Virus record (IMG/VR): IMGVR_UViG_3300036790_000219
Coordinates: 1 to 64,000 of that record
DNA: 64,000 nucleotides
DNA from: a virus
Strand: one strand, 5' to 3'
Shown: piece by piece, positions 7,248 to 22,564 of the stretch
Position numbering within the stretch: position 1 is the first letter of the stretch
How the letters are laid out: each line of letters begins with the position of its first letter
Notes under the pieces: generated by a model
What the model was told of the DNA's origin: nothing
Seen by the model: only the letters and a program-made list of their open reading frames with translations
Database searches by the model: none
Made by a program: the position numbers and the translations under genes

Positions 7248-8612
7248 ATGTCGCGTTTGAACGTTAAGACCCACCCAAACTATGGCCACACCCACGAAGG
7301 CGCACCAGCTGCTCGTATGAACGACGAGCAAGCTCTCCGTCGTTCTGTGATGTCCTGTCTTTTGTGGGAGGATGAGTTCTATGAGGACGGCGAGGAGATC
7401 AGCGCCCGTATTGTACGGTTGGCTAAGACCCTGCCACCTTGGACAGTTTCCTATATGGCTTGTCAGGCGCGGGAACAAGGCAATTTGCGCCATGTTCCGC
7501 TTCTGTTGCTCTCGGTTATTGCCGAGACTGGTCGGGGCCACAGGGAAGTTGCAGATGTCGTTGAGCGGGTTATTCAGCGTGCCGACGAACTGACTGAGTT
7601 CCTCGCGATCCACGCCAAGCGGAACAATGTTACACTTGACAAGATCAAGCCAACGCTTTCGGCCCAAATGAAGAAGGGTTTAGCGCGAGCGTTCCGCAAG
7701 TTTGATGAGTATCAGCTGGGGAAGTACGATCGTGCGGGCGGTATTCGTTTGCGGGACGTACTTTTCCTTTGCCACGCCAAGCCCCAGAACAAGGCTCAGG
7801 AGCGGCTCTGGAAGCGGTTGGTTCAGAATGAGCTCGAGGTCCCTGACACTTGGGAAGTTGCACTGACGCGCGGTGCCGACAAGAAGGAGACCTTCGAGCG
7901 GCTTCTTCGTGAAGGCCGATTGGGCTACCTGGCGCTGTTGCGTAACTTACGCAACATGGTACAGTCTGATTGCGACCCGGATCTGGTCAAGTCCGCTATC
8001 TTGGCACGTAGGGGTGGTGCAGACCGTGTTTTGCCATTCCGGTATACTGCAGCGGCACGGGCGGCTCCCCAGTTTGAATCCCAACTGGATGCTGCCCTAC
8101 AAGCGGCGGTGGGTGAGTTGCCGGTACTTATGGGTAAGACGGTCGTCCTTGTGGACGTCTCCCGTTCGATGGAATGGAAGTTGTCAGACAAGTCTGACTT
8201 GACCCGTATGGACGCAGCGGGAACGCTCGCTTCGATCGTCAACGCTGACCTCCGAGTGTTCACGTTCTCCGACGTCGTGTTGGAAGTCCCGGCTCGCCGT
8301 GGTATGGCAGGTGTGGATGTGATTAAGAACTCACAGGTACACAATGGTACCCATTTGTTTGATGCGGTTCATGAGATTAATGGGCTGGTAAAGTACGACC
8401 GTTTGATTGTGATCACTGATGAGCAAGCCGAACCAGGGAACTACAACATTCAGGGTCGGTTGAAGACCCTTCCAAACCCCGTGGGTTGTGGTTACATTAT
8501 TAATGTGGCATCGGCTAAGCACGGTGTCGGTTATGGAAAGTGGGTGCATGTTGATGGTTTCTCCGAATCGGTACTGCGATTTATTGCCATGCATGAGGAG
8601 AAGCAATCTTAA
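7248..8612 (+). CDS. rsr: Ro60/TROVE-vWA RNA-binding protein
   Basis: LRRSVMSCLLWEDEFYEDG, YLALLRNLRN, vWA LVDVSRSM and LIVITDEQ. Confidence 0.95.
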   Translation: MSRLNVKTHPNYGHTHEGAPAARMNDEQALRRSVMSCLLWEDEFYEDGEEISARIVRLAKTLPPWTVSYMACQAREQGNLRHVPLLLLSVIAETGRGHREVADVVERVIQRADELTEFLAIHAKRNNVTLDKIKPTLSAQMKKGLARAFRKFDEYQLGKYDRAGGIRLRDVLFLCHAKPQNKAQERLWKRLVQNELEVPDTWEVALTRGADKKETFERLLREGRLGYLALLRNLRNMVQSDCDPDLVKSAILARRGGADRVLPFRYTAAARAAPQFESQLDAALQAAVGELPVLMGKTVVLVDVSRSMEWKLSDKSDLTRMDAAGTLASIVNADLRVFTFSDVVLEVPARRGMAGVDVIKNSQVHNGTHLFDAVHEINGLVKYDRLIVITDEQAEPGNYNIQGRLKTLPNPVGCGYIINVASAKHGVGYGKWVHVDGFSESVLRFIAMHEEKQS

Positions 8613-11118: not shown

Positions 11119-12051
11119 ATGGCAACCCGCCACAAATATCCGGTTCTGGCGACTAAAAAGTGGTCTTATGGGGCAGAACTTGAATTAGCAGATTGGCCCC
11201 GTGGGGGAAAACTTCTTTCGGGTATGGCCATTGATGAGGCGGAGTGGAATAACGTCAATTCGAACGGGGTAGCAGTAGATGGTGCTGGTAAGCTTTACAA
11301 TTTAGGCGGGGAAATTTTGACAGCACCTTCCACTGACCCACACGCTCCGGCAGATCAATTGAGTTGGGTGAAGTCCCAATGGCCAGAAGCTCGTTGTAAT
11401 TTTCGAACTGGCTTAAATATCCACGTCCGTGTGCCAGGGTTGCGCGATGACTTAAAACGGTTAAAACAGCTTCAGGCTTTTATTCATGAGAGCATGCCGT
11501 GTTTGCTGCTCGTAATTGATCCTCTTAGTGTTCCAAATAAAAAAGCATTCCCCGATCAAATGGCGTGGAAGGGGGCACGGCGTGATTATCTACGTTGTCG
11601 GAAAAATCATCATACCCTCTTACCGCCTTGGCGCTTAGCATTACAGATGAAGGCTCGTAGTCCAGAAGAATTTTTTGCAGCAGAGGCTATCCATTTGCCA
11701 ACGGGGAAGGTTTATTGGGCCACCGTTCCACGGGCTTGCGTTAATCTGCGGCAATTGTTACAAACTGATACAGTGGAGTTCCGGCATTTTGCTGGTTCCT
11801 CTTCTCCGGAGGAGGTGTTGCGTGCTACGTTGTGGTGCAAAGCTTTTCTTGAAGCCGGATTTGAAGGTGGTAGCGCAAGAGAACTGTTGATGAATTTTGG
11901 GCCGCGTAAGGGGGTTGCTTGGCCGCAAGCAGCCCCTTATATTTATTGGATGGATAAAGGATTCTTCTTTACCAGCCGACATTTCCACCCTCCGGAAACG
12001 GTACGGGCTAATATTCGAGTGTGGCTGCTGCGGCAACGAAGGGAAAGCTAA
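11119..12051 (+). CDS. putative amidoligase (COOH-NH2 ligase type 2)
   Basis: YGAELE, GGEI, TGLNIHV, VNLRQL..TVEFRHF motifs. Confidence 0.75.
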   Translation: MATRHKYPVLATKKWSYGAELELADWPRGGKLLSGMAIDEAEWNNVNSNGVAVDGAGKLYNLGGEILTAPSTDPHAPADQLSWVKSQWPEARCNFRTGLNIHVRVPGLRDDLKRLKQLQAFIHESMPCLLLVIDPLSVPNKKAFPDQMAWKGARRDYLRCRKNHHTLLPPWRLALQMKARSPEEFFAAEAIHLPTGKVYWATVPRACVNLRQLLQTDTVEFRHFAGSSSPEEVLRATLWCKAFLEAGFEGGSARELLMNFGPRKGVAWPQAAPYIYWMDKGFFFTSRHFHPPETVRANIRVWLLRQRRES

Positions 12052-12052
12052 A

Positions 12053-13183
12053 ATGCCTATGATTATGAACCTGACCGAGAAGCTGTCCCAACGTACAGCT
12101 ATTCAACATATTGCACGTACAGATTGGACTTGGGGGAATGATTCTCCTTTTGTTGTTGAACTGGATCCCACAGCAGCTTGTGATTTGGCTTGTCCTGGTT
12201 GTATTAGCGAAGACCTGATCGCATTGGGTAACCGTTTTTCCGATGAGCGGCTTATGGGGCTTGGCCAAGAGTTTTTGGACTGCGGAGTGAAGGCTGTAAT
12301 CCTTATTGGTGGTGGTGAGCCTTTAGCGCATAGGAAGATTGGGGAGTTTATTGAGTTGCTGGGTAGTAATGGGGTTCACATAGGGATCACCACAAATGGT
12401 AGCTTCATTGATCGGTATTTAGAGCCTATCTCAATGTATTCAAAGTGGACACGGGTTTCGATGGATGCTGCCACGGACCGTTTGTTTAGTGTTCTGCGTC
12501 CGAGGAAGGGTGGTGGTGGAAGTAAGTTCACGAAGATTGTAAGCAACATGCGACTTTTAGCTGGGGTGAAAAAGGGTACCCTCGGCTACTCATTTTTGAT
12601 CCAGACTGCTGCCGACGATCCTAGGGTACAAAGTAATATTTGTGAGATTTATGAAGCAGCTGTCTTAGCCAGAGATATTGGTTGTGACTATTTTGAGGTT
12701 AAACCATCGTATCAATTTCGTGGCGGGGTGGAGCATGCTTTGGTGAAGCATTCTCAGGATTTGATGCAGGAAGCGGTTAGAGAGATAGCAAGGTTGGATG
12801 AATTGGAGACGGCTAGCTTTAAGATCATCCACGCGATTAATTTGAAGCCTTCTCTTGATGGTGTTGGTAGTTCGCAGTCGAAGGAATATAAACAATGCCC
12901 TTCAACGCACTTGAGGACAACGGTTACTCCTTCCGGGGTGTTTGTTTGCCCATATTGGCGTGGCAAAGAGCGAATGCGGGTGGGGGACGTAAATCACCAA
13001 AGTTTTAAGGAGATGTGGGAAGGTGCTCAGCGAGAGCAGGTTATGGCGCGGCTTGATGTTTCTAAGGATTGCACATTCCATTGTTTACGACACGCCACGA
13101 ATCTGACGGCGATAGATATAAAGCAGAAATTAAATGCGGGAGAGATAGTCCCCGTGGTTGAGGAGTTTGATCGTTTTATTTGA
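12053..13183 (+). CDS. radical SAM/SPASM enzyme
   Basis: CDLACPGC; GGGEPL; C-terminal CPS..VCPYW..CTFHC; start reassigned to ATG 12053. Confidence 0.9.
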   Translation: MPMIMNLTEKLSQRTAIQHIARTDWTWGNDSPFVVELDPTAACDLACPGCISEDLIALGNRFSDERLMGLGQEFLDCGVKAVILIGGGEPLAHRKIGEFIELLGSNGVHIGITTNGSFIDRYLEPISMYSKWTRVSMDAATDRLFSVLRPRKGGGGSKFTKIVSNMRLLAGVKKGTLGYSFLIQTAADDPRVQSNICEIYEAAVLARDIGCDYFEVKPSYQFRGGVEHALVKHSQDLMQEAVREIARLDELETASFKIIHAINLKPSLDGVGSSQSKEYKQCPSTHLRTTVTPSGVFVCPYWRGKERMRVGDVNHQSFKEMWEGAQREQVMARLDVSKDCTFHCLRHATNLTAIDIKQKLNAGEIVPVVEEFDRFI

Positions 13184-13196
13184 TGGGGAGGGGTCT

Positions 13197-14024
13197 ATGC
13201 CAAGCTCAGTTGACGTTGCTGTTGTTGGTGCTGGACTTTTTGGTAGCATTATAGCGGCAGCGCTCCGAAGGGCGAAAGCGTCAGTGCTTACCATTGATCC
13301 TTATCTCCCAGAAGCTGGTAGCCCCCCGGCCGCTTGTTTGATGAAACCATCTTGGTTTTCGTCCCTCGGCAAAAGTGTCTACGAACCGTCGCTTCGTTTG
13401 CTTGATGAATTGTATGGCACCCAGAGTGTGCGCTTCCAAGTTGGTAGGCTTTTTACTGAAGTGGTTTGGTGCCCTCCTAACAAAATCTTGCAGCCTGCGG
13501 ATAAACATTATCGTGTACGGCGCATACAACGGGCGGGTTCTTATTGGGAACTGGATGTCGGCGAACAACTACCTTTATTAAAGGTGCGGCGAGTTGTTGT
13601 TGCTGCAGGTGTTTGGACACCCACATTGGTTTCCGTTGAGGGGGGTGTTACTGGGTTGGCTGGTGTGGCTTATTTGTGGCCGAGTAAAACAATTGAAAGG
13701 CCATTTGTTAAGGTGTGGGCCCCTTATCGACAGTTGGTTGCGTTTAATCGCGGGGATGGCGTATGGGTAGGGGATGGCACTTCCATCAAACGTTTTAATT
13801 GGACTGCCGAGCGGGAAGTGAATTGCTACGACCGTTGTCAGCGCGCCGTTGGTTATGAGGATAGGGGAGTCAAAAGACTATTTGGCATGCGTCCATATGT
13901 TAACCAAAAACCTTGTTATTTGAAGGAACACCATCCCGGCTTTTGGGTTGCCACGGGCGGCGCTAAGAATGGTACTTTGGCGGCAGGGTGGTGTGCTAGT
14001 GAAATAGTTAATGCTTGGGGATAG
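13197..14024 (+). CDS. FAD-dependent oxidoreductase (DAO/glycine-oxidase-like)
   Basis: VAVVGAGLFG Rossmann motif; GMRPY; ATGGAKNG. Confidence 0.85.
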   Translation: MPSSVDVAVVGAGLFGSIIAAALRRAKASVLTIDPYLPEAGSPPAACLMKPSWFSSLGKSVYEPSLRLLDELYGTQSVRFQVGRLFTEVVWCPPNKILQPADKHYRVRRIQRAGSYWELDVGEQLPLLKVRRVVVAAGVWTPTLVSVEGGVTGLAGVAYLWPSKTIERPFVKVWAPYRQLVAFNRGDGVWVGDGTSIKRFNWTAEREVNCYDRCQRAVGYEDRGVKRLFGMRPYVNQKPCYLKEHHPGFWVATGGAKNGTLAAGWCASEIVNAWG

Positions 14025-14028
14025 GGGA

Positions 14029-14901
14029 ATGCCTCAAAAGTTACTTTTCCCAAAACGAGCTTCCCAACGGTATGAGTTGCAGAGTGTGGAGCGGTTTGGT
14101 GACGCATTATTGCGGACTAATGATTTAGACCCGGTTTACGTGGCCTTATGGGGCGCAAAGTTGAAGCCTGATCAGCTGAAGCGCCTCTTGCTGGTCTATT
14201 GGTGCTTTTACCACTTAGGGGTAGCAGCGGCGCTTAGTGAGTTGAAGGGTAACGAATTTTGGAGGGTGCTTCGAATTGCCGCCATTAACGAACAATCCCC
14301 TTATTTGGTGGACCTGTTGTGGCCAATTGGGCGTTGGCCTCGCAGTGCGGAACGCCGGTATTTCCGTGGTGCAAAATGTGTGGCCACTATTGATTGGTTG
14401 TGTGTGCGTGAACGTAGCCCAGAAAATTTGGTAGATCAATTGTTGGAAGCTGGAATTGGACGTAGTAATATTTTAGCAGCAGAAACAATAATGCAGCGGA
14501 TTCAGGAGTGGCCACTATTTGGTCCTTGGATAGCCTTCAAAGCAGCGGACATGGTAGAGCGGTTGTTTGCTATGTCCGTTGTGTTTCCAGAGAATTTGAC
14601 ACTGATTTATAAAGAACCGCGTAGTGCTCTGGATTTATTAGTGGGGGACCCCTTCAAAAATATGAGGCGTCTTGCTGTACATTTTGGTCAACAGCTTGCA
14701 CCACCTAGGTATGAGCGCCCTTGTGGCATAACGGAGTGCGAGACGGTGCTTTGTAAATGGAAGTCCTTTGTTAATGGTCATTACTGGGTTGGTAAGGATA
14801 TTTCCGAGATTCGAACTGGGCTAGGGAGTTGGGGTAAAACAGCTGACTTACTTCTACGACACACTCCTATAAGTTTGACACAGGAATCCCGCCCGGTATG
14901 A
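14029..14901 (+). CDS. amino acid:DNA transferase (aGPT-Pplase2/AADT family)
   Basis: DLDPVY, YWCFYHLG, RWPRSAERRYFRG, FGPWIAFK, ETVLCKWKS as in M6/YuA-type enzymes. Confidence 0.78.
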   Translation: MPQKLLFPKRASQRYELQSVERFGDALLRTNDLDPVYVALWGAKLKPDQLKRLLLVYWCFYHLGVAAALSELKGNEFWRVLRIAAINEQSPYLVDLLWPIGRWPRSAERRYFRGAKCVATIDWLCVRERSPENLVDQLLEAGIGRSNILAAETIMQRIQEWPLFGPWIAFKAADMVERLFAMSVVFPENLTLIYKEPRSALDLLVGDPFKNMRRLAVHFGQQLAPPRYERPCGITECETVLCKWKSFVNGHYWVGKDISEIRTGLGSWGKTADLLLRHTPISLTQESRPV

Positions 14902-14962
14902 TCAAAGTGGAGAAGGAATAAATGCAGTTTTTATTGGTACTGGGTTGCATCCTAGAAAAGCT

Positions 14963-15526
14963 ATGATTATCTCTCTTCGTGGTACCAACTCTTCGGGGAA
15001 GTCCACGGTCGTTCGTGGAATTATGGAACGGTTTCGCCCTGTACCACTTTATGGTGTGCTGGGCTTCAAGAAACCAGAAGCTTATCGGCTAGAATTACTG
15101 AAAAAGGGTAAGCCGCTTTACATTTTGGGGCCTTATGTTGTGCCCACGGGTGGTGCGGACCAGGTTACGACGAAAGGTATTGACGTCCTAATTGCTCTTG
15201 CTGAGAAGTACCACCAGAAAGGACACGTATTGGCTGAGGGTATTCTTATCAGTAACAATTATGGGTCGTTTGGTGAGTGGCTTCATAAATATAAAGAGGA
15301 AGTTATTGTTGTTTTTATGGACACTCCCCTTGCAGTATGTTTGGAGAGTGTAAAGCGCCGTCAAGTGGAAGCCGGTCGGGGTGAGAAGGAAGTTATACAT
15401 CTTGAGGGGCACTATAAGCGGGTACTCAGCACGCGCAAGACGATGGAAGGTATGGACTTTCGAACGGAGGATGTGTCCTGGGACAACGGAGTGGAGAAGA
15501 TACTATCATGGTTGACCAAAGAATAG
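14963..15526 (+). CDS. P-loop kinase, putative 5-hmdU DNA kinase
   Basis: LRGTNSSGKST Walker A; LGPY..GGAD; VLAEG; gene context. Confidence 0.72.
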   Translation: MIISLRGTNSSGKSTVVRGIMERFRPVPLYGVLGFKKPEAYRLELLKKGKPLYILGPYVVPTGGADQVTTKGIDVLIALAEKYHQKGHVLAEGILISNNYGSFGEWLHKYKEEVIVVFMDTPLAVCLESVKRRQVEAGRGEKEVIHLEGHYKRVLSTRKTMEGMDFRTEDVSWDNGVEKILSWLTKE

Positions 15527-15780
15527 TTACTGGTGCCCGCTGTGTTTGGTGGGGTTCGATCAATACCGTTGCAAGCTGTGGTGGTCTTCCGTGTTGCCCA
15601 CACTGTGGTTCTATGCTCTTCGAGTTTCCTTCGGAAGCAGACTGGTTTGTTGCCGTTGATGCACATGAAAAGGCGGGCAACCCCGGCTACCGAAAAGTAA
15701 TAGAGTGGATGCGGGGCAAACACTATAATACCTTCCTCGAAGCGAAGGCCCAGTACTTGGCGGAGCAGGAGAAAAAGTAG
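15508..15780 (+). CDS. small Cys-rich hypothetical protein
   Basis: LPCCPHCGS; tight gene packing. Confidence 0.55.
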   Translation: MVDQRIVTGARCVWWGSINTVASCGGLPCCPHCGSMLFEFPSEADWFVAVDAHEKAGNPGYRKVIEWMRGKHYNTFLEAKAQYLAEQEKK

Positions 15781-16682
15781 TGGTCAGTATCCGCCCACTT
15801 CTGTCTTTCGTTAAAGAGCGGGAAGCTATCCGGCTCAAGAAGCTTGAGGGTCTCCCAGCGCCGTGGACGAAGGACCAGATTTTTCAGATTTATCGTTTCT
15901 GCAACATTCGTCGGGCTGATGATCGCGTTAGTGCCTGGTTGATTAAGCATGTTTTGACTGAGAAGAATGTAGAGTACGATCTGCGGTCGTTTCTAATGTT
16001 CTCGGCTTGGTGTCGGTGGGTAAATTGGCCTCCGACGATCGCTGCTGTGATGAAAGAAGGCTTCTATCCCAAGAAGCGAATTGATTGGCAGAAGCTCGGC
16101 CGCTTTGTGGATAAAATAAAGGGTAAGAAGTGGACCGGTGCTTATATGATCGTTGCACCGCGCAAGGTGAAGCAGAAGAAAGGGGTGTTCGTTGCCCGTA
16201 CTGTGATTCAGAAGTCATTTGGGGGTGTTCTGCCTTCGCTGATCGAATTATTAGAGGGGGGTGTACCAAGCTTTGAGGTTGGGCCACATCAGGCGACGCG
16301 TGAGCAGGTTTGGGCTTTGTTAAAAACTCGCAACTTCTTTGGTGGGTTTATGGCTGGGCAGATCGTAGCGGATTGGGGGTATACTTCACTGCTTCGTCAC
16401 GCGCCGGATGCCAATACTTGGGCTGCACCGGGGCCAGGCTCTAGTCGGGGCTTCAACCGATTATTGGGTCTTCCAATTAAGACTAAGATTGATCCTGAGC
16501 TCTGGAAAGCTAAGTTACCGGAATGGCGAGAGAAGGTAATCAAGCTTCTCGGCTCAGAGTATGCAGATTTGACAGCGATGGACGTTCAGAACCAGCTTTG
16601 TGAATTGGATAAGTACCTTAGGGTCAAAACTGGTGCGGGACGTCCGCGAGCAAAGTACAGACCGGAGACAGCTTATGCTTAA
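15780..16682 (+). CDS. aGPT-Pplase1 / 5-hmdU DNA kinase helical-domain protein
   Basis: ERE..PWTKDQIFQIYRFCNIRRADDRVS; GGFMAGQIVAD; QNQLCELDKY. Confidence 0.85.
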   Translation: MVSIRPLLSFVKEREAIRLKKLEGLPAPWTKDQIFQIYRFCNIRRADDRVSAWLIKHVLTEKNVEYDLRSFLMFSAWCRWVNWPPTIAAVMKEGFYPKKRIDWQKLGRFVDKIKGKKWTGAYMIVAPRKVKQKKGVFVARTVIQKSFGGVLPSLIELLEGGVPSFEVGPHQATREQVWALLKTRNFFGGFMAGQIVADWGYTSLLRHAPDANTWAAPGPGSSRGFNRLLGLPIKTKIDPELWKAKLPEWREKVIKLLGSEYADLTAMDVQNQLCELDKYLRVKTGAGRPRAKYRPETAYA

Positions 16683-17121
16683 TCCAATCCAAACGAAAAA
16701 CCGTCCAAGTTTGCTGGATTTGCGTGCGCTTAGTGATCGAGCCCTTGTAGCTGGTTTCTTTGAGGAGCGTAGTTGGCGCTCCTTGTACGAACGCATAATC
16801 CTGGAAAGAATGCAAGAGGATGGGTACTACAATTTCTACCAGTGGGTTTGGGATACCCCTTCTTCAAAGAAGATTTCTAGTAAGCAACCCCCAATTCCAA
16901 GAACAGCATTGGGAATGCAGTTGGGTTCAGAGCTACGCGCTATTTTTGAGAGTGGGTGTAAATTCGAAGATGTTAGGGACTCAGAAAGGGTGAGAGAGTT
17001 TTGTTCACCAGACGGAAATGTCTATCATCTTACTGAGCGGGAATTAACGCAACGCCAGAAAGGAATGCTTGGGCTGATTCGGGATCGTAGTAGGCGTTGG
17101 ATTCAAAAGCACAGTAGGTAG
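16675..17121 (+). CDS. hypothetical protein
   Basis: Fills the gap between flanking genes with overlapping start/stop. Confidence 0.55.
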   Translation: MLNPIQTKNRPSLLDLRALSDRALVAGFFEERSWRSLYERIILERMQEDGYYNFYQWVWDTPSSKKISSKQPPIPRTALGMQLGSELRAIFESGCKFEDVRDSERVREFCSPDGNVYHLTERELTQRQKGMLGLIRDRSRRWIQKHSR

Positions 17122-17124
17122 AAA

Positions 17125-18189
17125 ATGCGTGTAATCTATGCTGACAACGTCAACGATGCTTTCTATCATGGGGTGAACGCTCTCATTCGAGACGGCGTTC
17201 GCCAGAGCTCTCGGGCTGGTTATGTGCTTGTAATGCCCTATCCAGTTTGTACGACGTACGCTTTCCCAGAGAAGCGCGTACTTTTCCATGCTAAGCGCGA
17301 TGCCAATCCGTTCTTCCATTTATTTGAGGCGTTATGGATGTTGGCTGGACAAAAGCATGGGGCTTGGCTTGACCAGTTTGTCCATGACTTTTCTGAACGC
17401 TTTGCTGAGGAGAACGGGGATATTCATGGAGCCTATGGTTTTCGCTGGCTTCGGCACTTTGACGTTGACGGTGGCGGGGAGGATCGGCGGCTTCCCAATC
17501 AGCTGGATACAATCGTTGAGCTTCTAAAAAAGGATCCAAACGATCGGCGCATTGTTTTGTCTATGTGGGACCCGGTGGCAGATTTGGGTGTTAGTAAGTT
17601 TGACATCCCATGTAATACTCATGTATATTTTCGAGTGCGAGAAGAAGAATTTAAGCCTGGTGGTTTCTTTGAGGAGTCGGACCATAAAACTGGGGGTCGC
17701 TTATTGGATATGACGGTTTGCTGCCGTTCAAATGATGCTGTGTGGGGTGCCTACGGTGCGAATGCCGTACACTTTTCGATCTTGCAGGAATATCTGGCCG
17801 CTCGGATCGGTGTCCAAATTGGGACTTACTACCAATTTAGCAACAACTTCCACATATATTCGGACATGGTAGATAAGCTAAGCCCTTTGGAGCCGGAGAA
17901 CCGTGACTTCTACTCTACTGGCACGGCAACGCGGATTGTGACTGTACCAGAAGACTTCGATGCGGAATTGGCGCTCTTTATGGGTGGGCATCCGCTACGG
18001 TGGACCTATTCTTACCGCAACGAATTCTTCCCTAAGGTGACATTGCCACTTCTTGAGGCACATGGCTTGTGGAAGCAGAAGCTGCGGAAGGAAGCACACG
18101 CGACTTTGCAGAAGCTTCCCTTCGGTTCGGATTGGCGGTTTGCAGCAGAACGTTGGATGCTGCGTCGTATGCATAAAGTGGGAGAGTGA
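17125..18189 (+). CDS. thymidylate-synthase-fold enzyme, probable dUMP hydroxymethylase
   Basis: RDANPFFHLFE, DIPCN, RSND..GAN (Asn = dUMP-specific position); context. Confidence 0.8.
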   Translation: MRVIYADNVNDAFYHGVNALIRDGVRQSSRAGYVLVMPYPVCTTYAFPEKRVLFHAKRDANPFFHLFEALWMLAGQKHGAWLDQFVHDFSERFAEENGDIHGAYGFRWLRHFDVDGGGEDRRLPNQLDTIVELLKKDPNDRRIVLSMWDPVADLGVSKFDIPCNTHVYFRVREEEFKPGGFFEESDHKTGGRLLDMTVCCRSNDAVWGAYGANAVHFSILQEYLAARIGVQIGTYYQFSNNFHIYSDMVDKLSPLEPENRDFYSTGTATRIVTVPEDFDAELALFMGGHPLRWTYSYRNEFFPKVTLPLLEAHGLWKQKLRKEAHATLQKLPFGSDWRFAAERWMLRRMHKVGE

Positions 18190-18192
18190 TGA

Positions 18193-18669
18193 GTGACTAC
18201 TGAGAATCCTGCGACAGTTGAAGGGTTGAAGGCAAATGCGTACCAGTTTGGGGGTACTCATTATCAGACTGCGTATCAGCATTGGGATCTTGTTCTACGT
18301 TGCGGTCTTGGTTATCTAGAAGGGTGCGCAACGAAGTATGTGGCCCGGTGGCGTAAGACTGGTGTCAAAGGTGAGACGGATCTTCATAAGGCGGCCCACT
18401 ATGTGCAGAAGTTGTTAGAGAATACTCTTGGACAACGCCAACGACTTCCGCAGCGGTGGTTGCGCCAGGAACTTTCTAGGTTCCTTGCCCTCAACGGGAT
18501 CCAAGGTGATGATTTAGCGATTCTGACGGCTATTGTAACTTGGGAGACGGAGCATGATCTTCAAACTGCCCTAAGTTTGATTGAGTACTTACTAACCGAG
18601 AACTTTCCAAAAGCGGTTCCTCTCGAAGATAGCAATAAGCATGCTGAACGGGCGGTAGCTAAAAAATGA
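18193..18669 (+). CDS. DUF3310 / T7 gp1.7-like putative nucleotide kinase
   Basis: GGTHY..LEGCATKYVARWRK..DLHKA.HY. Confidence 0.75.
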   Translation: MTTENPATVEGLKANAYQFGGTHYQTAYQHWDLVLRCGLGYLEGCATKYVARWRKTGVKGETDLHKAAHYVQKLLENTLGQRQRLPQRWLRQELSRFLALNGIQGDDLAILTAIVTWETEHDLQTALSLIEYLLTENFPKAVPLEDSNKHAERAVAKK

Positions 18670-19760
18670 AGATTGAACGTAAGGAATTGCTGACGGCGCT
18701 TGAGCCTCTAAAGCCTGCGTTGGCCGTACGATCATCCATTGCCGAACTTTCTCACGTGTGGTTCGACCGTGAGTTTGCCTACGCTTACGACAACGGCAAA
18801 GGCATTCGCGTCAAATTTGCTTGTCCGCTCAAGCTGGGTGTATCGGGGCCGCTACTTCTCGGCTTAGTTGAACAGAGTAGTGCTGATACGTTTACGCTAG
18901 AAGAGAATGATACGGCCCTCACTTTCAAATCTGGCCGGTCAAATGTCAAGTTGGTCACCCTCCCCTTCGAAGGCCGAGTCTGGCCGTATCCGGAGAAGTC
19001 TAAAGGAAAGCCCCTAGCTACGATCAAGGTATCGGAAGGCTTCCTTGCGGCGCTTAAGCGAGTGCTCTCGTTGCGCCCAGTTATTCAGAAGCGAATGGAA
19101 CATCACAGCGTTTGTGTCTACCCTATTGGGAAGAGCGGTGAGGAAATGGATCTGTTTACAACGGATTCCGTTTCGCTAGCCTATATGCCCCTTGTCGAAG
19201 CTATTGGTAGTAATGCCGACGCCCTTGCCATCCCCAGAGAATTTGCCGACCAGATTTTGGCTCAATGTAAACCGGGGCAGGAACTGAATTTTTACACCGA
19301 CCACTTTGCTTTGCAAGCAAGCGAGAAGGTTTGGCTTTACTCTAATGTATTTGATACCTCGGAAATGCTTGAGTTAGGGGAAGCTGTTGACAAGTTCTCA
19401 GACAAGAAGCTGACGCCTACTTTTGATATTCCTGACGGTTTTACTGCGACGTTGGAGCGTGCAGTTCTTATGGCAGGTACTGAGGAGCCGGTCGTCTCGT
19501 TGCGGGCAACTGGGAAGACGCTGGTATTGAAAGGGCAGTTCAAGTTTGGACAATTAGATGAGGAGTTTACGCTTAGCGCCGCGTTACCCAAGGTCTCAAT
19601 TGATGTTGTCGCGAAAACGCTTCTGGCGGTTAAGGATGTTACCCGTATGATGATCTTACCTCGGAATGACCGGGAGAACGGTGCCCTTGCACTCTGTGGT
19701 AAGGACGGTTTTAGGTATATCACCGCGCCGTGGGGGATGGATAAGAAGAGTAAGGAATAA
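18666..19760 (+). CDS. beta-clamp-like sliding clamp
   Basis: MKIERKELLTAL start, 364 aa, near clamp loader and polymerase. Confidence 0.75.
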   Translation: MKIERKELLTALEPLKPALAVRSSIAELSHVWFDREFAYAYDNGKGIRVKFACPLKLGVSGPLLLGLVEQSSADTFTLEENDTALTFKSGRSNVKLVTLPFEGRVWPYPEKSKGKPLATIKVSEGFLAALKRVLSLRPVIQKRMEHHSVCVYPIGKSGEEMDLFTTDSVSLAYMPLVEAIGSNADALAIPREFADQILAQCKPGQELNFYTDHFALQASEKVWLYSNVFDTSEMLELGEAVDKFSDKKLTPTFDIPDGFTATLERAVLMAGTEEPVVSLRATGKTLVLKGQFKFGQLDEEFTLSAALPKVSIDVVAKTLLAVKDVTRMMILPRNDRENGALALCGKDGFRYITAPWGMDKKSKE

Positions 19761-19766
19761 ACTTTT

Positions 19767-20009
19767 ATGCATCCTCTAGCTTGGAAGAACTGCAGCGGGG
19801 GTAATAGTGGTGCGTGGAATGAGGTTCACTCTGGGGATCATGTTATTTACCTTATAGACGGTCGCAAGGGTACGTTAGATGAGTGTCTCCACGATGGAGA
19901 TGCTTTTATTACTTGGGATGACGGTTCTTTTGGTATGGTAAGGTGGTACAATCTGGCTCCTGTGTCAAGAGTGAAGACTACAGCTACTGGTTGGGAAGCT
20001 ATGTTATAA
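19767..20009 (+). CDS. hypothetical protein
   Basis: Short ORF coupled to the polymerase start. Confidence 0.5.
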   Translation: MHPLAWKNCSGGNSGAWNEVHSGDHVIYLIDGRKGTLDECLHDGDAFITWDDGSFGMVRWYNLAPVSRVKTTATGWEAML

Positions 20010-22564
20010 TGGGGTTGTTATTTGCGGACACTACTGGTGGTGAGTTCAAGGCCAAGTCTGAAACGAAGCTCCTAAATCAATTGGGGTGTAAGGCTTGCCC
20101 GCTCAATCACACACCTGGTAAGATTGATGCTACAGGAGCGGACAAACCGCTTATCTATATCCTCGGCGAAGCGGCGGGCCGTGAGGAAGAAGAACAGCGT
20201 CTACAATTTGTAGGAACCGCTGGCAAGCTTCTACGCCAGTACATTCCAAAGAAGTACCTCCCGCAGATTCGTTGGAATAACGTCTTAAATTGTCATCCAC
20301 CAGGGAACAAGACCCCGGAGCGTACTGAAACGGAATGTTGCCGGCCACGCATCGTAGTTGATATCGAGCGTACTAAGCCAAAAGTTATCTTCGGCTTCGG
20401 TGGTACTCCGCTAACTTGGGTGGGTGGTTTTTCTGGTATTACATTTTGGCGTGGGCGGCGGATGCCCGTTAAAGTAGGTAGTCACACGTGTTGGTACTAC
20501 GCCTTTTTACATCCCTCATATCTTCACCGCATTCATCGGGCTGATCGTTACTCAGGCGAGGTTACGCCATCGGATGAAGAGTTCATTACTGAGCTTGACT
20601 TGATGCGGGCCTTCGATGAACTTGATGACTTACCGCCGCCTGAAGTTCACACACCGGAGATGGCTAAGGCAAATGTTGAGTGTATTACTAAGATCCGTGA
20701 TATTGAATTGGCTTTGGCTTGGGCAGCGAAGCAGAAGAGTGTAGGACAAGATTATGAGACCAATTGCATTCGCCCTTTCGAAGCAAAAGCTAAAATTCTT
20801 ACTGCATCGGTGGGGACACTAGAACGGGCCTTCGCTTTCCCAATGATGCACCCTGGTGCGGGGTATAGTCGGGAACAGCGCGAGGATATCATGAACCTTT
20901 GGAAGCGGTTCTTGATGAATGCGCCTTGTCGTAAGATGGTTCATAATCTTGCCTTTGAGATGGAATGGTCAGCAGAGTTCTTTGGTACGGAAGTTCTACG
21001 TGCGCGGCCCTGGGAAGATACTGCCAACGCAGCGGCGATCGTTGATGAGCGTTCTGGGGATCGTAAAAAGGTTGGACCATTCAGTTTAGAGTTCTTGGTT
21101 CAACAATACTTTGGCTTCAATATCAAGAAGGTCTCAAATGTTAACCGCTCTAATCTTGAGAACACCGACCTTCCCACCGTTCTGCTTTACAACGGTATAG
21201 ACGCAAAGTACCACGACGGTCTCTGGTACAAACTTTGGGAAGCCATTAAGCAAGAAGGGTTAGAGGAAGCCTATAGATTGGCGGTACGCCGAGTCCCTAC
21301 CGTGACGCTTGCCCAGGTTAAGGGTGTACCGGTAGACCAGTCGAGGGTAAAGGTTCTTCAGAAGAAGTACAACACGATCGTTGAGGGGATTGAGGATAAG
21401 ATCTTCGCCGTTGATGTGGTGGGCGAATTTAAGCGTAAGACCGGTGCAGAATTTAGTCCCTCATCCAACCCTGATATTGTAGATATCTTCGAAAAGTTTT
21501 TGCATTGTAAGGAAGTCAACGTTGTTGATAAGTACACCAAGAAGGAAAAGAAATCCTGTGATGAGTCGGTGCTCTCTCAGATTAAGCACCCGCTCGCACA
21601 ACTGATATTAGATTATCGGGGTGCCACTCATCAACGTTCTACGTATATTGAGCCATTGCTTAAAGGTTTTGCTAGCTCTGTTATCTTTCCCGATGACCTT
21701 ATTCATGCCCAGTTTAATACCTTCTTTGCAGAGACAGGAAGGTTAAGCTGCTCGACGCCGAATTTGCAGAACTTCCCCAAGCGAGACGCTGAAGCTAAGG
21801 AAGTTCGTTACCCCATTCGTGCGCCACAGGGCTGCTTGATTCTAAGCTTCGACTATGGGCAGATCGAAGCCCGTGTCATTGCAATGTTCACTCAGGACAA
21901 ACGCTTTTGCAAGGCACTTTGGGAACGCTATGATGTTCACCAGGATTGGGCTGAGCGTATTGCTTACGACTACCCAGCACGTGTTGGTGGGAAGAAGAAC
22001 TTAACCGACAAGAAGGCGATGAAGGACTTCCGCACAGACATAAAGAACCAGTGGACGTTCCCCCTCTTCTTTGGTGCACAACTCAAGTCCGTGGCAGGAT
22101 ACCTTAGTATCCCTGAGAACGTTCTGCGCCCACATTACAAGAAGTTCTGGCGGGAGTTTGAAGGCGTTAAGAATTGGCAGGAAGAACTCAAGAAATTCTA
22201 CTACGAGTATGGTTATGTGGAGTGTTTGACGGGACGCCGACGTCATGGCCCGTTGAGCTTAAACCAGATACTAAACTCGCCGGTTCAAGGAACTGCTTGT
22301 GAAATTGTTATGGACGCTATGTCGCGTCTCTCTGAAACCGGAGACCCACTTTTGCAACCGGAGCTTCAGATCCATGACGATCTAACTTTTATTCGGGTGC
22401 CCGAGGAGCAGATTGATGTTGTGGCGGAAAAAGTGATCGACAAGATGTTGGATGTTCCCTTTGATTTTATCAACGTTCCGATCACTGCGGAAATGAGTGT
22501 TGGTGAGAATTGGATGCAGCTTGAGGAAGTAGGGACGTATTCCTCCGATACGTGGAGAAAGTAA
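20009..22564 (+). CDS. family A DNA polymerase with N-terminal family-4 UDG-like domain
   Basis: CKACPL..GEAAG..FVG.AG (UDG4); DYETN/HNLAFE exonuclease; DYGQIEARV, QIHDDL. Confidence 0.93.
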   Translation: MGLLFADTTGGEFKAKSETKLLNQLGCKACPLNHTPGKIDATGADKPLIYILGEAAGREEEEQRLQFVGTAGKLLRQYIPKKYLPQIRWNNVLNCHPPGNKTPERTETECCRPRIVVDIERTKPKVIFGFGGTPLTWVGGFSGITFWRGRRMPVKVGSHTCWYYAFLHPSYLHRIHRADRYSGEVTPSDEEFITELDLMRAFDELDDLPPPEVHTPEMAKANVECITKIRDIELALAWAAKQKSVGQDYETNCIRPFEAKAKILTASVGTLERAFAFPMMHPGAGYSREQREDIMNLWKRFLMNAPCRKMVHNLAFEMEWSAEFFGTEVLRARPWEDTANAAAIVDERSGDRKKVGPFSLEFLVQQYFGFNIKKVSNVNRSNLENTDLPTVLLYNGIDAKYHDGLWYKLWEAIKQEGLEEAYRLAVRRVPTVTLAQVKGVPVDQSRVKVLQKKYNTIVEGIEDKIFAVDVVGEFKRKTGAEFSPSSNPDIVDIFEKFLHCKEVNVVDKYTKKEKKSCDESVLSQIKHPLAQLILDYRGATHQRSTYIEPLLKGFASSVIFPDDLIHAQFNTFFAETGRLSCSTPNLQNFPKRDAEAKEVRYPIRAPQGCLILSFDYGQIEARVIAMFTQDKRFCKALWERYDVHQDWAERIAYDYPARVGGKKNLTDKKAMKDFRTDIKNQWTFPLFFGAQLKSVAGYLSIPENVLRPHYKKFWREFEGVKNWQEELKKFYYEYGYVECLTGRRRHGPLSLNQILNSPVQGTACEIVMDAMSRLSETGDPLLQPELQIHDDLTFIRVPEEQIDVVAEKVIDKMLDVPFDFINVPITAEMSVGENWMQLEEVGTYSSDTWRK

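What the first reader, a model, noticed from the sequence alone, without database searches (positions are those of the whole stretch)
11119..18669. Thymidine-hypermodification cassette with an unusual enzyme set: probable new DNA base
Seen: contiguous amidoligase, radical SAM/SPASM, FAD oxidoreductase, amino-acid:DNA transferase, P-loop kinase, aGPT-Pplase1, TS-fold enzyme with dUMP-specifying Asn (RSND..GAN) and DUF3310. Known: in M6/ViI/PaMx11-type phages hmdU is phosphorylated in DNA, an amino acid is installed, and radical SAM isomerases, PLP decarboxylases, flavin lyases or acetyltransferases tailor it; the rSAM + flavin route yields an aminomethyl-dU that is then acetylated. Inference: no PLP or acetyltransferase gene is visible here, and an ATP-dependent amidoligase sits in the cassette instead. 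It could acylate (e.g. glutamylate) the amine to give an uncharacterised base. The tailoring genes also look more AT-rich at wobble positions than the flanks (not computed), suggesting a swapped-in module.
Basis: partly seen in the sequence, partly recalled or inferred. Interest (0 to 1): 0.88.

Follow-up and report, generated by a model that had tools for sequence, protein, structure and literature searches.

The report
Phage thymine-hypermodification cluster with amidoligase and radical-SAM
An uncultured 120-kb phage has the known enzyme set that turns thymine in its DNA into 5-aminomethyl-uracil, but where relatives have an acetyltransferase it has an ATP-dependent amide ligase plus a radical-SAM enzyme taken from bacterial sugar-decoration operons, so it probably makes an undescribed DNA base.

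Summary
Window 11119-18669 is one tight +strand operon. It encodes a GS-fold amidoligase, a radical SAM/twitch enzyme, a homolog of PaMx11 gp47 (FAD N-alpha-GlyT oxidase, 50% id), a homolog of gp46 (glycine:DNA transferase, 39% id), the 5-hmdU DNA kinase, PF18723 (old name aGPT-Pplase1), a dUMP-hydroxymethylase-like TS and a gp53/DUF3310-like protein. Every published active-site residue of gp46 (12) and gp47 (9) is conserved, so synthesis of 5-aminomethyl-dU is well supported.

In 21 viral loci with the FAD gene, the next gene is either the gp48-type acetyltransferase (6) or the amidoligase (13), never both. That argues the ligase acylates the unmasked amine.

New here: in 69 of 82 loci the amidoligase is followed by an LMW phosphatase. 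In this phage and two relatives it is followed by a radical SAM enzyme unrelated to M6 gp53. That enzyme is 55-73% identical to bacterial enzymes that sit in GT2-rSAM-ALDH-ATP-grasp/AMP-ligase-WecE cassettes, so it probably makes or tailors the acyl group.

The acyl group is unknown and no chemistry was tested. Amidoligases in such clusters were noted, without a function, by Lee et al. 2021. This scan has already reported the amidoligase-phosphatase form on other DNA. Verdict: new variant of a known kind.

The parts
11119..12051 (+). GS-fold carboxylate-amine ligase (divergent Amidoligase_2), 310 aa; proposed ATP-dependent N-acylase of 5-aminomethyl-dU in DNA
   Evidence: PF12224 only E=0.036 for this protein, but 26/37 homologs match. 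Model pLDDT 94.9. VIA-align top 19 hits are all GS/GCL/YbdK/PafA, Z 9.6-5.5. Invariant E20, E22, E65, R96, R205, R211, E220, R222, H223. Sits where gp48 GNAT sits in PaMx11-type loci.
12053..13183 (+). Radical SAM enzyme with one auxiliary-cluster (twitch/partial SPASM) domain, 376 aa; proposed maker or tailor of the acyl group
   Evidence: PF04055 1.5e-11. CX3CX2C at C41/C45/C48 plus invariant C280, C297, C338, C342. 55-73% identical to bacterial homologs. Nested in a bacterial clade. Foldseek: SuiB, DesII, SkfB, BlsE, anSME. Unrelated to M6 gp53.
13197..14024 (+). FAD-dependent N-alpha-glycinylthymidine oxidase/lyase (PaMx11 gp47/NGTO homolog); the ORF is open from 13158, likely ATG at 13197
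   Evidence: 50% identity over full length to gp47. W51, F52, Y180, Q182, K202, R210, R242, Y244, K268 of NGTO all conserved (with PMC11472151). ATG with GGGGAGGGG upstream.
14011..14901 (+). Amino acid:DNA transferase (PaMx11 gp46/PUGT homolog), probably glycine-specific
   Evidence: PF18724 3.6e-14. 39% identity to gp46. D24, Y47, Y51, E92, W146, K150, E243, T244, C247, K261, D262, E265 all conserved (with PMC11472151).
14945..15526 (+). P-loop 5-hmdU DNA kinase
   Evidence: PF18748 32.2 bits, cut-off 27. 28% identity to M6 gp54.
15508..15780 (+). 90-aa Cys-rich ORF, function unknown, no homolog in related loci
   Evidence: No Pfam/PHROG hit. No tblastn hit in 80 loci.
15780..16682 (+).
   Evidence: PF18723 2.6e-37. 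31% identity to M6 gp55.
16675..17121 (+). Orphan ORF (open from 16600, likely start 16675), unknown; sits where relatives have an HD/YfbR-like nucleotidase
   Evidence: No family hits. Relative L006 has an HD_3/YfbR-like gene at this position.
17125..18189 (+). Thymidylate-synthase-fold enzyme, probable dUMP hydroxymethylase (PaMx11 gp51 homolog)
   Evidence: PF00303 4.6e-24, phrog_5131 1.5e-91. 38% identity over full length to gp51. Asn in the GAN motif.
18193..18669 (+). gp53-like / DUF3310-like small protein, function unknown
   Evidence: phrog_5839 5e-31. DUF3310 E=0.018, sub-threshold. 34% identity to PaMx11 gp53.

Best explanation
The cassette replaces thymine in the phage's DNA with a hypermodified base, in steps.

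Well supported by homology:
1. The TS-like enzyme makes 5-hmdUMP, which is incorporated during replication.
2. The P-loop kinase phosphorylates 5-hmdU in DNA.
3. The AADT swaps the phosphate for glycine, giving N-alpha-GlyT.
4. The FAD enzyme cleaves this to 5-aminomethyl-dU plus glyoxylate.

Inferred: the GS-fold amidoligase then activates a free carboxylic acid with ATP, as an acyl-phosphate, and joins it to the unmasked primary amine. It does the job that the GNAT acetyltransferase does in PaMx11, but with a different acyl group, giving a 5-(acylaminomethyl)-dU.

More weakly inferred: the adjacent radical SAM enzyme, captured from a bacterial cassette in which it always travels with a carboxylate-activating ligase, builds that acid or tailors the acyl group after ligation. 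It does not act on the base itself.

The acyl group is unknown. Characterised GS-fold ligases use the gamma-carboxylate of glutamate, so that is the default guess.
For: Pathway to 5-NmdU:
- Family hits.
- gp47 50% and gp46 39% identity, with all 9 and all 12 published functional residues conserved (PMC11472151 sections 14 and 20).
- gp51-like TS.

Amidoligase is a ligase: fold matches only GS/GCL/PafA, and 26/37 homologs match PF12224.

It acts after the amine is made:
- In 21 FAD-containing viral loci, the gene right after FAD is either the gp48-type GNAT (6) or the amidoligase (13), never both.
- The same ligase family also sits in M6-type clusters with a PLP decarboxylase, which likewise end in a primary amine.

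The family is tied to DNA hypermodification: it is fused to LMW phosphatase, TET-associated glycosyltransferase, GATase and a P-loop kinase-like domain.

rSAM role:
- 55-73% identity to bacterial chromosomal homologs.
- The phage clade is nested in a bacterial clade (95 and 99 SH-aLRT).
- In 41 non-actinobacterial loci, 37 have an ATP-grasp or AMP-binding ligase and 31 an ALDH within 5 kb.
- The amid-rSAM-FAD-AADT quartet is kept in two further large phages, even where TET/JBP replaces the TS.
- 16 contig lengths are shared between the amidoligase and rSAM hit lists.
Against: - No chemistry was done; the phage is uncultured.
- The amidoligase itself is below Pfam's threshold.
- GATase-amidoligase fusions suggest that some family members amidate a carboxylate with ammonia. 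The DNA-borne group could therefore be the acid rather than the amine.
- The phage lacks the ALDH that accompanies the rSAM in most bacteria.
- A GNAT exists elsewhere in the genome. It is unrelated to gp48, but it could still acetylate 5-NmdU.
- Most family members pair with a phosphatase that is absent here, so this clade may work differently.
- The tree is a quick, midpoint-rooted one.
Confidence: 0.5

Rival explanations
1. The amidoligase activates a carboxylate that is already on the DNA (the glycine carboxyl of N-alpha-GlyT) and joins it to ammonia or another amine, giving a glycinamide-type base. The FAD enzyme then handles only part of the sites, or acts on another substrate.
For: GATase-amidoligase fusions exist in the family. 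Lee et al. 2021 also saw amidotransferases with amidoligases in these clusters. Thirty-five family members sit with TET/JBP oxidases that could create carboxylated bases.
Against: The ligase always follows enzymes that remove the carboxylate: the FAD lyase with the conserved carboxylate-binding R242, or the M6-type PLP decarboxylase. It takes the exact place of the amine-acetylating GNAT. No GATase is present in this genome.
Confidence: 0.17
2. The radical SAM enzyme works directly on the modified base in DNA, as M6 gp53 does. It would isomerise, decarboxylate or oxidise N-alpha-GlyT or the acylated product, so the base has a rearranged carbon skeleton.
For: It sits between the ligase and the FAD gene in one operon, and the quartet is conserved in three phages. 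Structural neighbours DesII and BlsE act on nucleotide- or nucleoside-linked substrates.
Against: No similarity to gp53. It is 55-65% identical to bacterial chromosomal proteins in glycan cassettes that have no DNA-modification genes, which argues for a shared small-molecule or acyl substrate.
Confidence: 0.15
3. The final base is simply 5-aminomethyl-dU, or 5-AcNmdU made by the distant GNAT. The amidoligase and rSAM then serve something else, such as host envelope or metabolite remodelling, as an auxiliary module.
For: The rSAM's relatives are glycan-cassette genes. A GNAT exists at genome 111949-112422.
Against: The ligase family is embedded in or fused to DNA-hypermodification genes in dozens of unrelated phages. 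Here the genes abut, with 1-nt and 13-nt gaps, inside the operon. The GNAT shows no similarity to gp48.
Confidence: 0.1

Closest known systems
Pseudomonas phage PaMx11 5-AcNmdU pathway (gp46 PUGT, gp47 NGTO, gp48 GNAT, gp49 kinase, gp50, gp51 TS, gp53); PMC8989533, PMC11472151
   Same: Homologs of gp46, gp47, gp49, gp50, gp51 and gp53 are all present. The catalytic and substrate-binding residues of gp46 and gp47 are conserved. The logic is the same: hmdU, then PmdU, then N-alpha-GlyT, then 5-NmdU.
   Different: No gp48 acetyltransferase and no gp52-type HD protein. A GS-fold amidoligase plus a cellular-type radical SAM enzyme take the terminal tailoring position. The gene order differs (ligase and rSAM lie upstream of FAD). 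The genome is a 120-kb phage, not a 60-kb Mesyanzhinovviridae.
Amidoligase + LMW-phosphatase form of the same cluster (e.g. phage Simon PQ683277 and many IMG/VR contigs; seen in Lee et al. 2021 Fig. 2 without a function)
   Same: Same ligase family (35-45% identity), in the same place after the FAD gene, and equally uncharacterised.
   Different: Those loci carry PF01451 directly after, or fused to, the ligase. This phage has no such gene and has the rSAM instead.
Pseudomonas phage M6 5-NedU pathway (gp51 AADT, gp52 PLP decarboxylase, gp53 SPL-like rSAM isomerase)
   Same: Shares the kinase, AADT, PF18723 and TS. A radical SAM gene lies in the tailoring block.
   Different: The rSAM is unrelated (E=15). 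There is no PLP enzyme in the genome.
Bacterial GT2(ArnC-like)-rSAM-ALDH-ATP-grasp-WecE cassette (uncharacterised)
   Same: The rSAM is 55-73% identical and phylogenetically nested in this group. In both settings it travels with an ATP-dependent carboxylate-amine ligase and an amine-generating enzyme.
   Different: The acceptor there is presumably a dTDP-4-amino-4,6-dideoxyhexose, the ligase is ATP-grasp or AMP-binding, and an ALDH is usually present. Here the acceptor would be a DNA base, the ligase is GS-fold, and there is no ALDH.
GS-fold gamma-glutamyl-amine ligases (from my own knowledge, named by analogy: PuuA, GmaS, NpaA1, PafA)
   Same: Same fold class. The chemistry activates a carboxylate as an acyl-phosphate and transfers it to an amine.
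   Different: Only 10-17% identity. The protein is much smaller (310 aa). The donor acid and a DNA acceptor are unproven.

Membership tests
PaMx11-type 5-NmdU/5-AcNmdU thymidine hypermodification pathway | TS-fold dUMP hydroxymethylase with dUMP-specifying Asn | tested here: met
   PF00303 4.6e-24; motif RSND..GAN; 38% identity to gp51 over full length. Hydroxymethylase versus methylase activity is not testable here.
PaMx11-type 5-NmdU/5-AcNmdU thymidine hypermodification pathway | 5-hmdU DNA kinase (P-loop) | tested here: met
   PF18748 32.2 bits, above the cut-off of 27.
PaMx11-type 5-NmdU/5-AcNmdU thymidine hypermodification pathway | Glycine:DNA transferase with catalytic Cys247, metal ligands E243/T244 and glycine contacts D24/W146/K150 | tested here: met
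   All 12 named residues are conserved in the pairwise alignment (PMC11472151 section 14).
PaMx11-type 5-NmdU/5-AcNmdU thymidine hypermodification pathway | FAD N-alpha-GlyT oxidase with base cage W51/Y180/Q182/K268 and carboxylate-binding R242 | tested here: met
   50% identity; all 9 named residues conserved (PMC11472151 section 20).
PaMx11-type 5-NmdU/5-AcNmdU thymidine hypermodification pathway | gp48-type GNAT acetyltransferase that caps 5-NmdU | tested here: not met
   No match to gp48 in the whole genome at E<=10. The only GNAT lies about 19 kb away around the circle and is unrelated. The window is therefore not a member of the 5-AcNmdU pathway as defined.
Amidoligase_2 (PF12224) / GS-fold carboxylate-amine ligases | Match to the family HMM above the gathering score | tested here: inconclusive
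   This protein scores 14.4 bits against a cut-off of 22. Of 37 aligned homologs, 26 match at E<=0.01, best 7.3e-9.
Amidoligase_2 (PF12224) / GS-fold carboxylate-amine ligases | Glutamine-synthetase-like catalytic fold | tested here: met
   Model pLDDT 94.9. The top 19 VIA-align hits are all GS/GCL/YbdK/PafA/Dop, Z 9.6-5.5, and the next hit is 4.5. Foldseek hits are all the same class, though weak.
Amidoligase_2 (PF12224) / GS-fold carboxylate-amine ligases | ATP-dependent amide-bond formation | not testable with these tools
   Only invariant acidic and basic residues are seen (E20, E22, E65, R96, R205, R211, E220, R222, H223). They were not mapped onto GS metal or ATP sites.
M6 gp53-type (SPL-like) glycinyl-thymine isomerase | Sequence similarity to gp53 | tested here: not met
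   BLASTP best E=15. True gp53 homologs exist in other amidoligase loci (L004, L007, L016, L023, L044) but not here.
Radical SAM superfamily with SPASM/twitch extension | CX3CX2C SAM-cluster motif | tested here: met
   C41, C45 and C48 are invariant; PF04055 1.5e-11.
Radical SAM superfamily with SPASM/twitch extension | C-terminal auxiliary Fe-S cluster domain | tested here: inconclusive
   PF13186 scores 20.2 bits against a cut-off of 21.5. Four invariant C-terminal Cys are enough for one cluster. Structural neighbours are SPASM/twitch enzymes.
Bacterial glycan-cassette rSAM family (GT2-rSAM-ALDH-ligase-WecE) | Full-length high identity and placement inside the clade | tested here: met
   55-73% identity over 376 aa. 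Clade support is 95 and 99 SH-aLRT in a quick tree.
Bacterial glycan-cassette rSAM family (GT2-rSAM-ALDH-ligase-WecE) | Neighbouring ALDH, GT2 and WecE genes | tested here: not met
   None of these lies next to the rSAM in the window. There is no ALDH in the genome. Only the 'adjacent carboxylate-amine ligase' theme is kept.

The most novel reading that the evidence does not exclude
The phage has captured a bacterial radical SAM enzyme that builds an unusual acid for decorating surface amino-sugars, and it pairs that enzyme with a DNA-directed GS-fold amidoligase. The result would be that thymines carry a 5-(acylaminomethyl) group whose acyl part is a radical-SAM-made acid. That would be a DNA base of a kind not yet described, and the first case of glycan-decoration chemistry redirected onto DNA.
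Probability: 0.35. Interest if true: 0.8.

Novelty: new variant of a known kind. Interest (0 to 1): 0.62.

Why it matters
Hypermodified thymines shield phage DNA from restriction and other nucleases, and each new one has supplied new enzymes that work on DNA polymers.

This cluster offers a concrete, testable route to a new base. The first four steps can be run with already characterised homologs, leaving two enzymes to assay. It also gives a functional handle on a ligase family of at least 556 clusters at 50% identity that is wired into DNA-hypermodification genes, and on a widespread, uncharacterised bacterial radical SAM cassette.

If the ligase accepts varied acids, it could be a tool for site-directed acylation of DNA.

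Tried and rejected
Searches that gave nothing useful:
- Megablast of the cassette against phage records: no match.
- NCBIfam gave no family for the amidoligase, AADT or PF18723 protein, and only sub-threshold generic hits for the rSAM.
- PDB sequence search with the amidoligase profile found nothing meaningful.
- Foldseek alone was weak for the amidoligase (best E 2e-3); VIA-align was needed.
- ESM Atlas gave only the generic label 'radical SAM'.
- A full-text search for the bacterial rSAM-ALDH-ATP-grasp cassette found nothing.
- No paper assigning a function to an amidoligase in thymidine hypermodification was found.

Amidoligase-rSAM linkage on metagenome contigs therefore rests on 16 matching contig lengths, not on inspected DNA.
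- The single metagenome-contig scan returned one distant locus only.
- Complex prediction was not used, because the report does not claim that the two proteins bind.

Ideas rejected:
- The 120-kb record as a doubled 60-kb genome: self-BLAST shows only the 127-bp terminal repeat.
- The rSAM as an M6-type isomerase.
- An LMW phosphatase, GATase, ALDH, PALP enzyme, dCMP deaminase or gp52-type HD protein hidden elsewhere in the genome: none found.
- The terminator-like hairpin at 11909-11938 inside the ligase ORF as a signal: its folding z-score is only -1.55.

Full report
**What is there**

The window is the first 64 kb of a complete 120,057-bp viral record. Its 127-bp terminal repeat is the only self-similarity, so this is not a doubled 60-kb genome.

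From 11119 to 18669, ten +strand ORFs abut or overlap. The ligase stop and the rSAM start are 1 nt apart. The rSAM stop and the likely FAD start at 13197 are 13 nt apart.

- radical SAM, with a near-threshold SPASM match;
- a DAO-type FAD enzyme;
- AADT (PF18724);
- the 5-hmdU DNA kinase (PF18748);
- thymidylate synthase.

Two labels needed more work:
- The first ORF scores only E=0.036 against Amidoligase_2. It belongs to a family in which 26 of 37 aligned members match PF12224. Its AlphaFold model (pLDDT 94.9) matches only glutamine-synthetase-fold carboxylate-amine ligases: YbdK, GCL, GS, GmaS, PafA and Dop, with Z 9.6 to 5.5 for the top 19 and then a drop to 4.5.
- The 'DUF3310' protein is sub-threshold for that family, but it is a clear homolog of PaMx11 gp53.

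**The core pathway**

The FAD enzyme is 50% identical over its full length to PaMx11 gp47, and the AADT is 39% identical to gp46. The crystal-structure paper on those two proteins (PMC11472151) names their functional residues.
- For gp46: D24, Y47, Y51, E92, W146, K150, E243, T244, C247, K261, D262 and E265.
- For gp47: W51, F52, Y180, Q182, K202, R210, R242, Y244 and K268.

I read every one of them as conserved in the pairwise alignments. They include the glycine contacts, the catalytic cysteine, and the arginine proposed to hold the glycine carboxylate. The TS is 38% identical to gp51, including its C-terminal extension.

The route hmdUMP, hmdU-DNA, 5-PmdU, N-alpha-GlyT, 5-aminomethyl-dU plus glyoxylate is therefore well supported by homology to reconstituted enzymes (PMC8989533).

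**What replaces the acetyltransferase**

No gp48 homolog exists anywhere in the genome. One unrelated GNAT lies at 111949-112422.

I collected 21 viral loci containing the FAD gene. The gene immediately after it is:
- the gp48-type GNAT in 6 loci;
- the amidoligase in 13 loci;
- never both;
- neither in 2 loci (one truncated).

The same ligase family also occurs in M6-type clusters with the PLP decarboxylase and the SPL-like rSAM (L004, L007, L016, L023, L044). Both routes remove the amino-acid carboxylate and leave a primary amine.

The family is firmly tied to DNA hypermodification:
- Of 82 loci, about 27 carry the kinase and/or AADT genes and 38 carry a TET/JBP oxygenase.
- A profile search finds 556 clusters at 50% identity.
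- Fused forms carry an LMW phosphatase, a TET-associated glycosyltransferase, a class-II GATase or a P-loop kinase-like domain.

The GATase fusions keep alive the rival reading that some members amidate a DNA-borne carboxylate.

**What is particular to this phage**

In 69 of 82 loci the ligase is followed by a small gene that is an LMW phosphatase (PF01451, 5e-15). Earlier follow-ups of this scan reported that pairing on other DNA.

This genome has no such gene. Here, and in two related large phages (L006, 110.6 kb; L005, 137 kb), the ligase is followed by a 376-aa radical SAM enzyme. In L005 the quartet ligase-rSAM-FAD-AADT is kept even though a TET/JBP oxygenase replaces the TS as the source of hmU. 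A fourth relative, L007, has an SDR after the ligase together with M6-type tailoring genes.

**The radical SAM enzyme**

It shows no similarity to M6 gp53. It has the CX3CX2C motif and four further invariant cysteines.

It has over a thousand homologs. Bacterial and MAG proteins are 55-73% identical over the full length, from Thiotrichaceae, Desulfobacter, Lachnospiraceae and others, with Streptomyces and Pelagibacteraceae at about 40%.

None of those bacterial loci contains any thymidine-hypermodification gene. Instead the neighbours are:
- an ArnC/PgfS-like GT2;
- a PuuC/BADH-like aldehyde dehydrogenase;
- an ATP-grasp ligase, or an AMP-binding ligase with an ACP;
- a WecE-type dTDP-4-amino-4,6-dideoxyhexose transaminase that scores above its NCBIfam cut-off.

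Among 41 non-actinobacterial loci, 37 have one of the two ligase types and 31 have the ALDH within 5 kb. In a quick maximum-likelihood tree, the three phage proteins plus one short MAG contig form a supported clade nested inside this bacterial group. The model (pLDDT 88.7) is closest to SuiB, DesII, SkfB, BlsE and anSME, which does not fix a reaction.

The constant partner across all settings is a carboxylate-activating ligase of changing type, next to an enzyme that makes an amine. The simplest common denominator is the acid. I therefore infer that the rSAM makes the acyl donor or tailors it after ligation. An earlier follow-up on a bacterial genome read the bacterial cassette the same way. 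I reached that reading from my own neighbourhood analysis before seeing it, but it is not independent experimental evidence.

**Module origin**

The five tailoring genes have the lowest mean GC3 (0.451) of all 93 five-gene runs. The genome mean is 0.52, sd 0.067. The shift is about one standard deviation per gene, and a second region comes close at 0.456. With the rSAM tree, this fits a swapped-in module but does not prove one.

**Novelty and limits**

Lee et al. 2021 already reported, without a function, that amidoligase and amidotransferase genes accompany kinase/AADT clusters in viromes. I found no later paper assigning a function.

The pairing of the ligase with a cellular glycan-cassette rSAM is not described in anything I could search.

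Everything past 5-NmdU is inference from gene order, fusions and folds. The acyl group is unknown. Glutamate is only the default of the GS-fold superfamily (my own knowledge), and no chemistry has been done.

Noticed in passing
window 19943-22564: Family A DNA polymerase with an N-terminal uracil-DNA-glycosylase domain and a 3'-5' exonuclease domain (PF03167 2.5e-14, PF00476 6e-60). A 2025 preprint (10.1101/2025.03.26.645540) describes such UDG-PolA fusions. This is notable in a phage that probably replaces T with a dU derivative.
   Followed up: partly
window 7248-8612: Phage-encoded Ro60-like protein: TROVE domain (6e-12) plus weak vWA matches. It lies just downstream of the tRNA/tmRNA region noted by other readers.
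   Followed up: no
genome 111949-112422 (outside the window; L166:1375-1848): The only GNAT acetyltransferase in the genome (PF00583, 6.7e-13). It is unrelated to PaMx11 gp48 and its neighbours have no informative family. It could in principle still act on 5-NmdU.
   Followed up: partly
window 18666-19760: 364-aa ORF with no family hit of its own. Its homolog in relative L006 matches DNA pol III beta-clamp domains weakly, so it is probably a sliding clamp.
   Followed up: partly
window 11909-11938: A 13-bp GC-rich hairpin followed by a T-rich tail, inside the 3' end of the amidoligase ORF. It was the top terminator-like hit, but its folding z-score is only -1.55, so it is probably not a signal.
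   Followed up: yes
L005:14272-15728 (IMGVR_UViG_3300037421_000080, 137 kb): A relative keeps ligase-rSAM-FAD-AADT, but these are followed by a Tet_JBP oxygenase and a different P-loop kinase (Ploopntkinase3), with no TS/PF18723 nearby. The same tailoring module is apparently fed by in-DNA oxidation of thymine.
   Followed up: partly
L007:9202-13294 (IMGVR_UViG_3300012971_000018, 112 kb): Another relative combines an M6-type PLP enzyme, the amidoligase, a short-chain dehydrogenase and an M6 gp53-type rSAM before the AADT. This is a further uncharacterised permutation.
   Followed up: partly
P0285, P0317, P0342, P0242 (family members): Fusion proteins of the amidoligase with LMW phosphatase plus TET-associated glycosyltransferase, with the TAGT alone, with a class-II glutamine amidotransferase, and with a P-loop kinase-like domain.
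   Followed up: partly
L096:7009-13387 and about 40 other bacterial loci (L085-L120): A conserved, apparently uncharacterised bacterial cassette: ArnC-like GT2, radical SAM, PuuC-like aldehyde dehydrogenase, ATP-grasp (or AMP-ligase plus ACP) and a WecE transaminase. In Pelagibacteraceae it lies next to NeuB and sugar epimerase genes.
   Followed up: partly
window 15508-15780 and 16675-17121: Two ORFs inside the operon (a 90-aa ORF with CCPHC, and a ~148-aa ORF) with no homolog in any of 80 related loci and no family hit. The second sits where relatives have an HD/YfbR-like nucleotidase, and the genome has no gp52-type HD gene or dCMP deaminase.
   Followed up: partly
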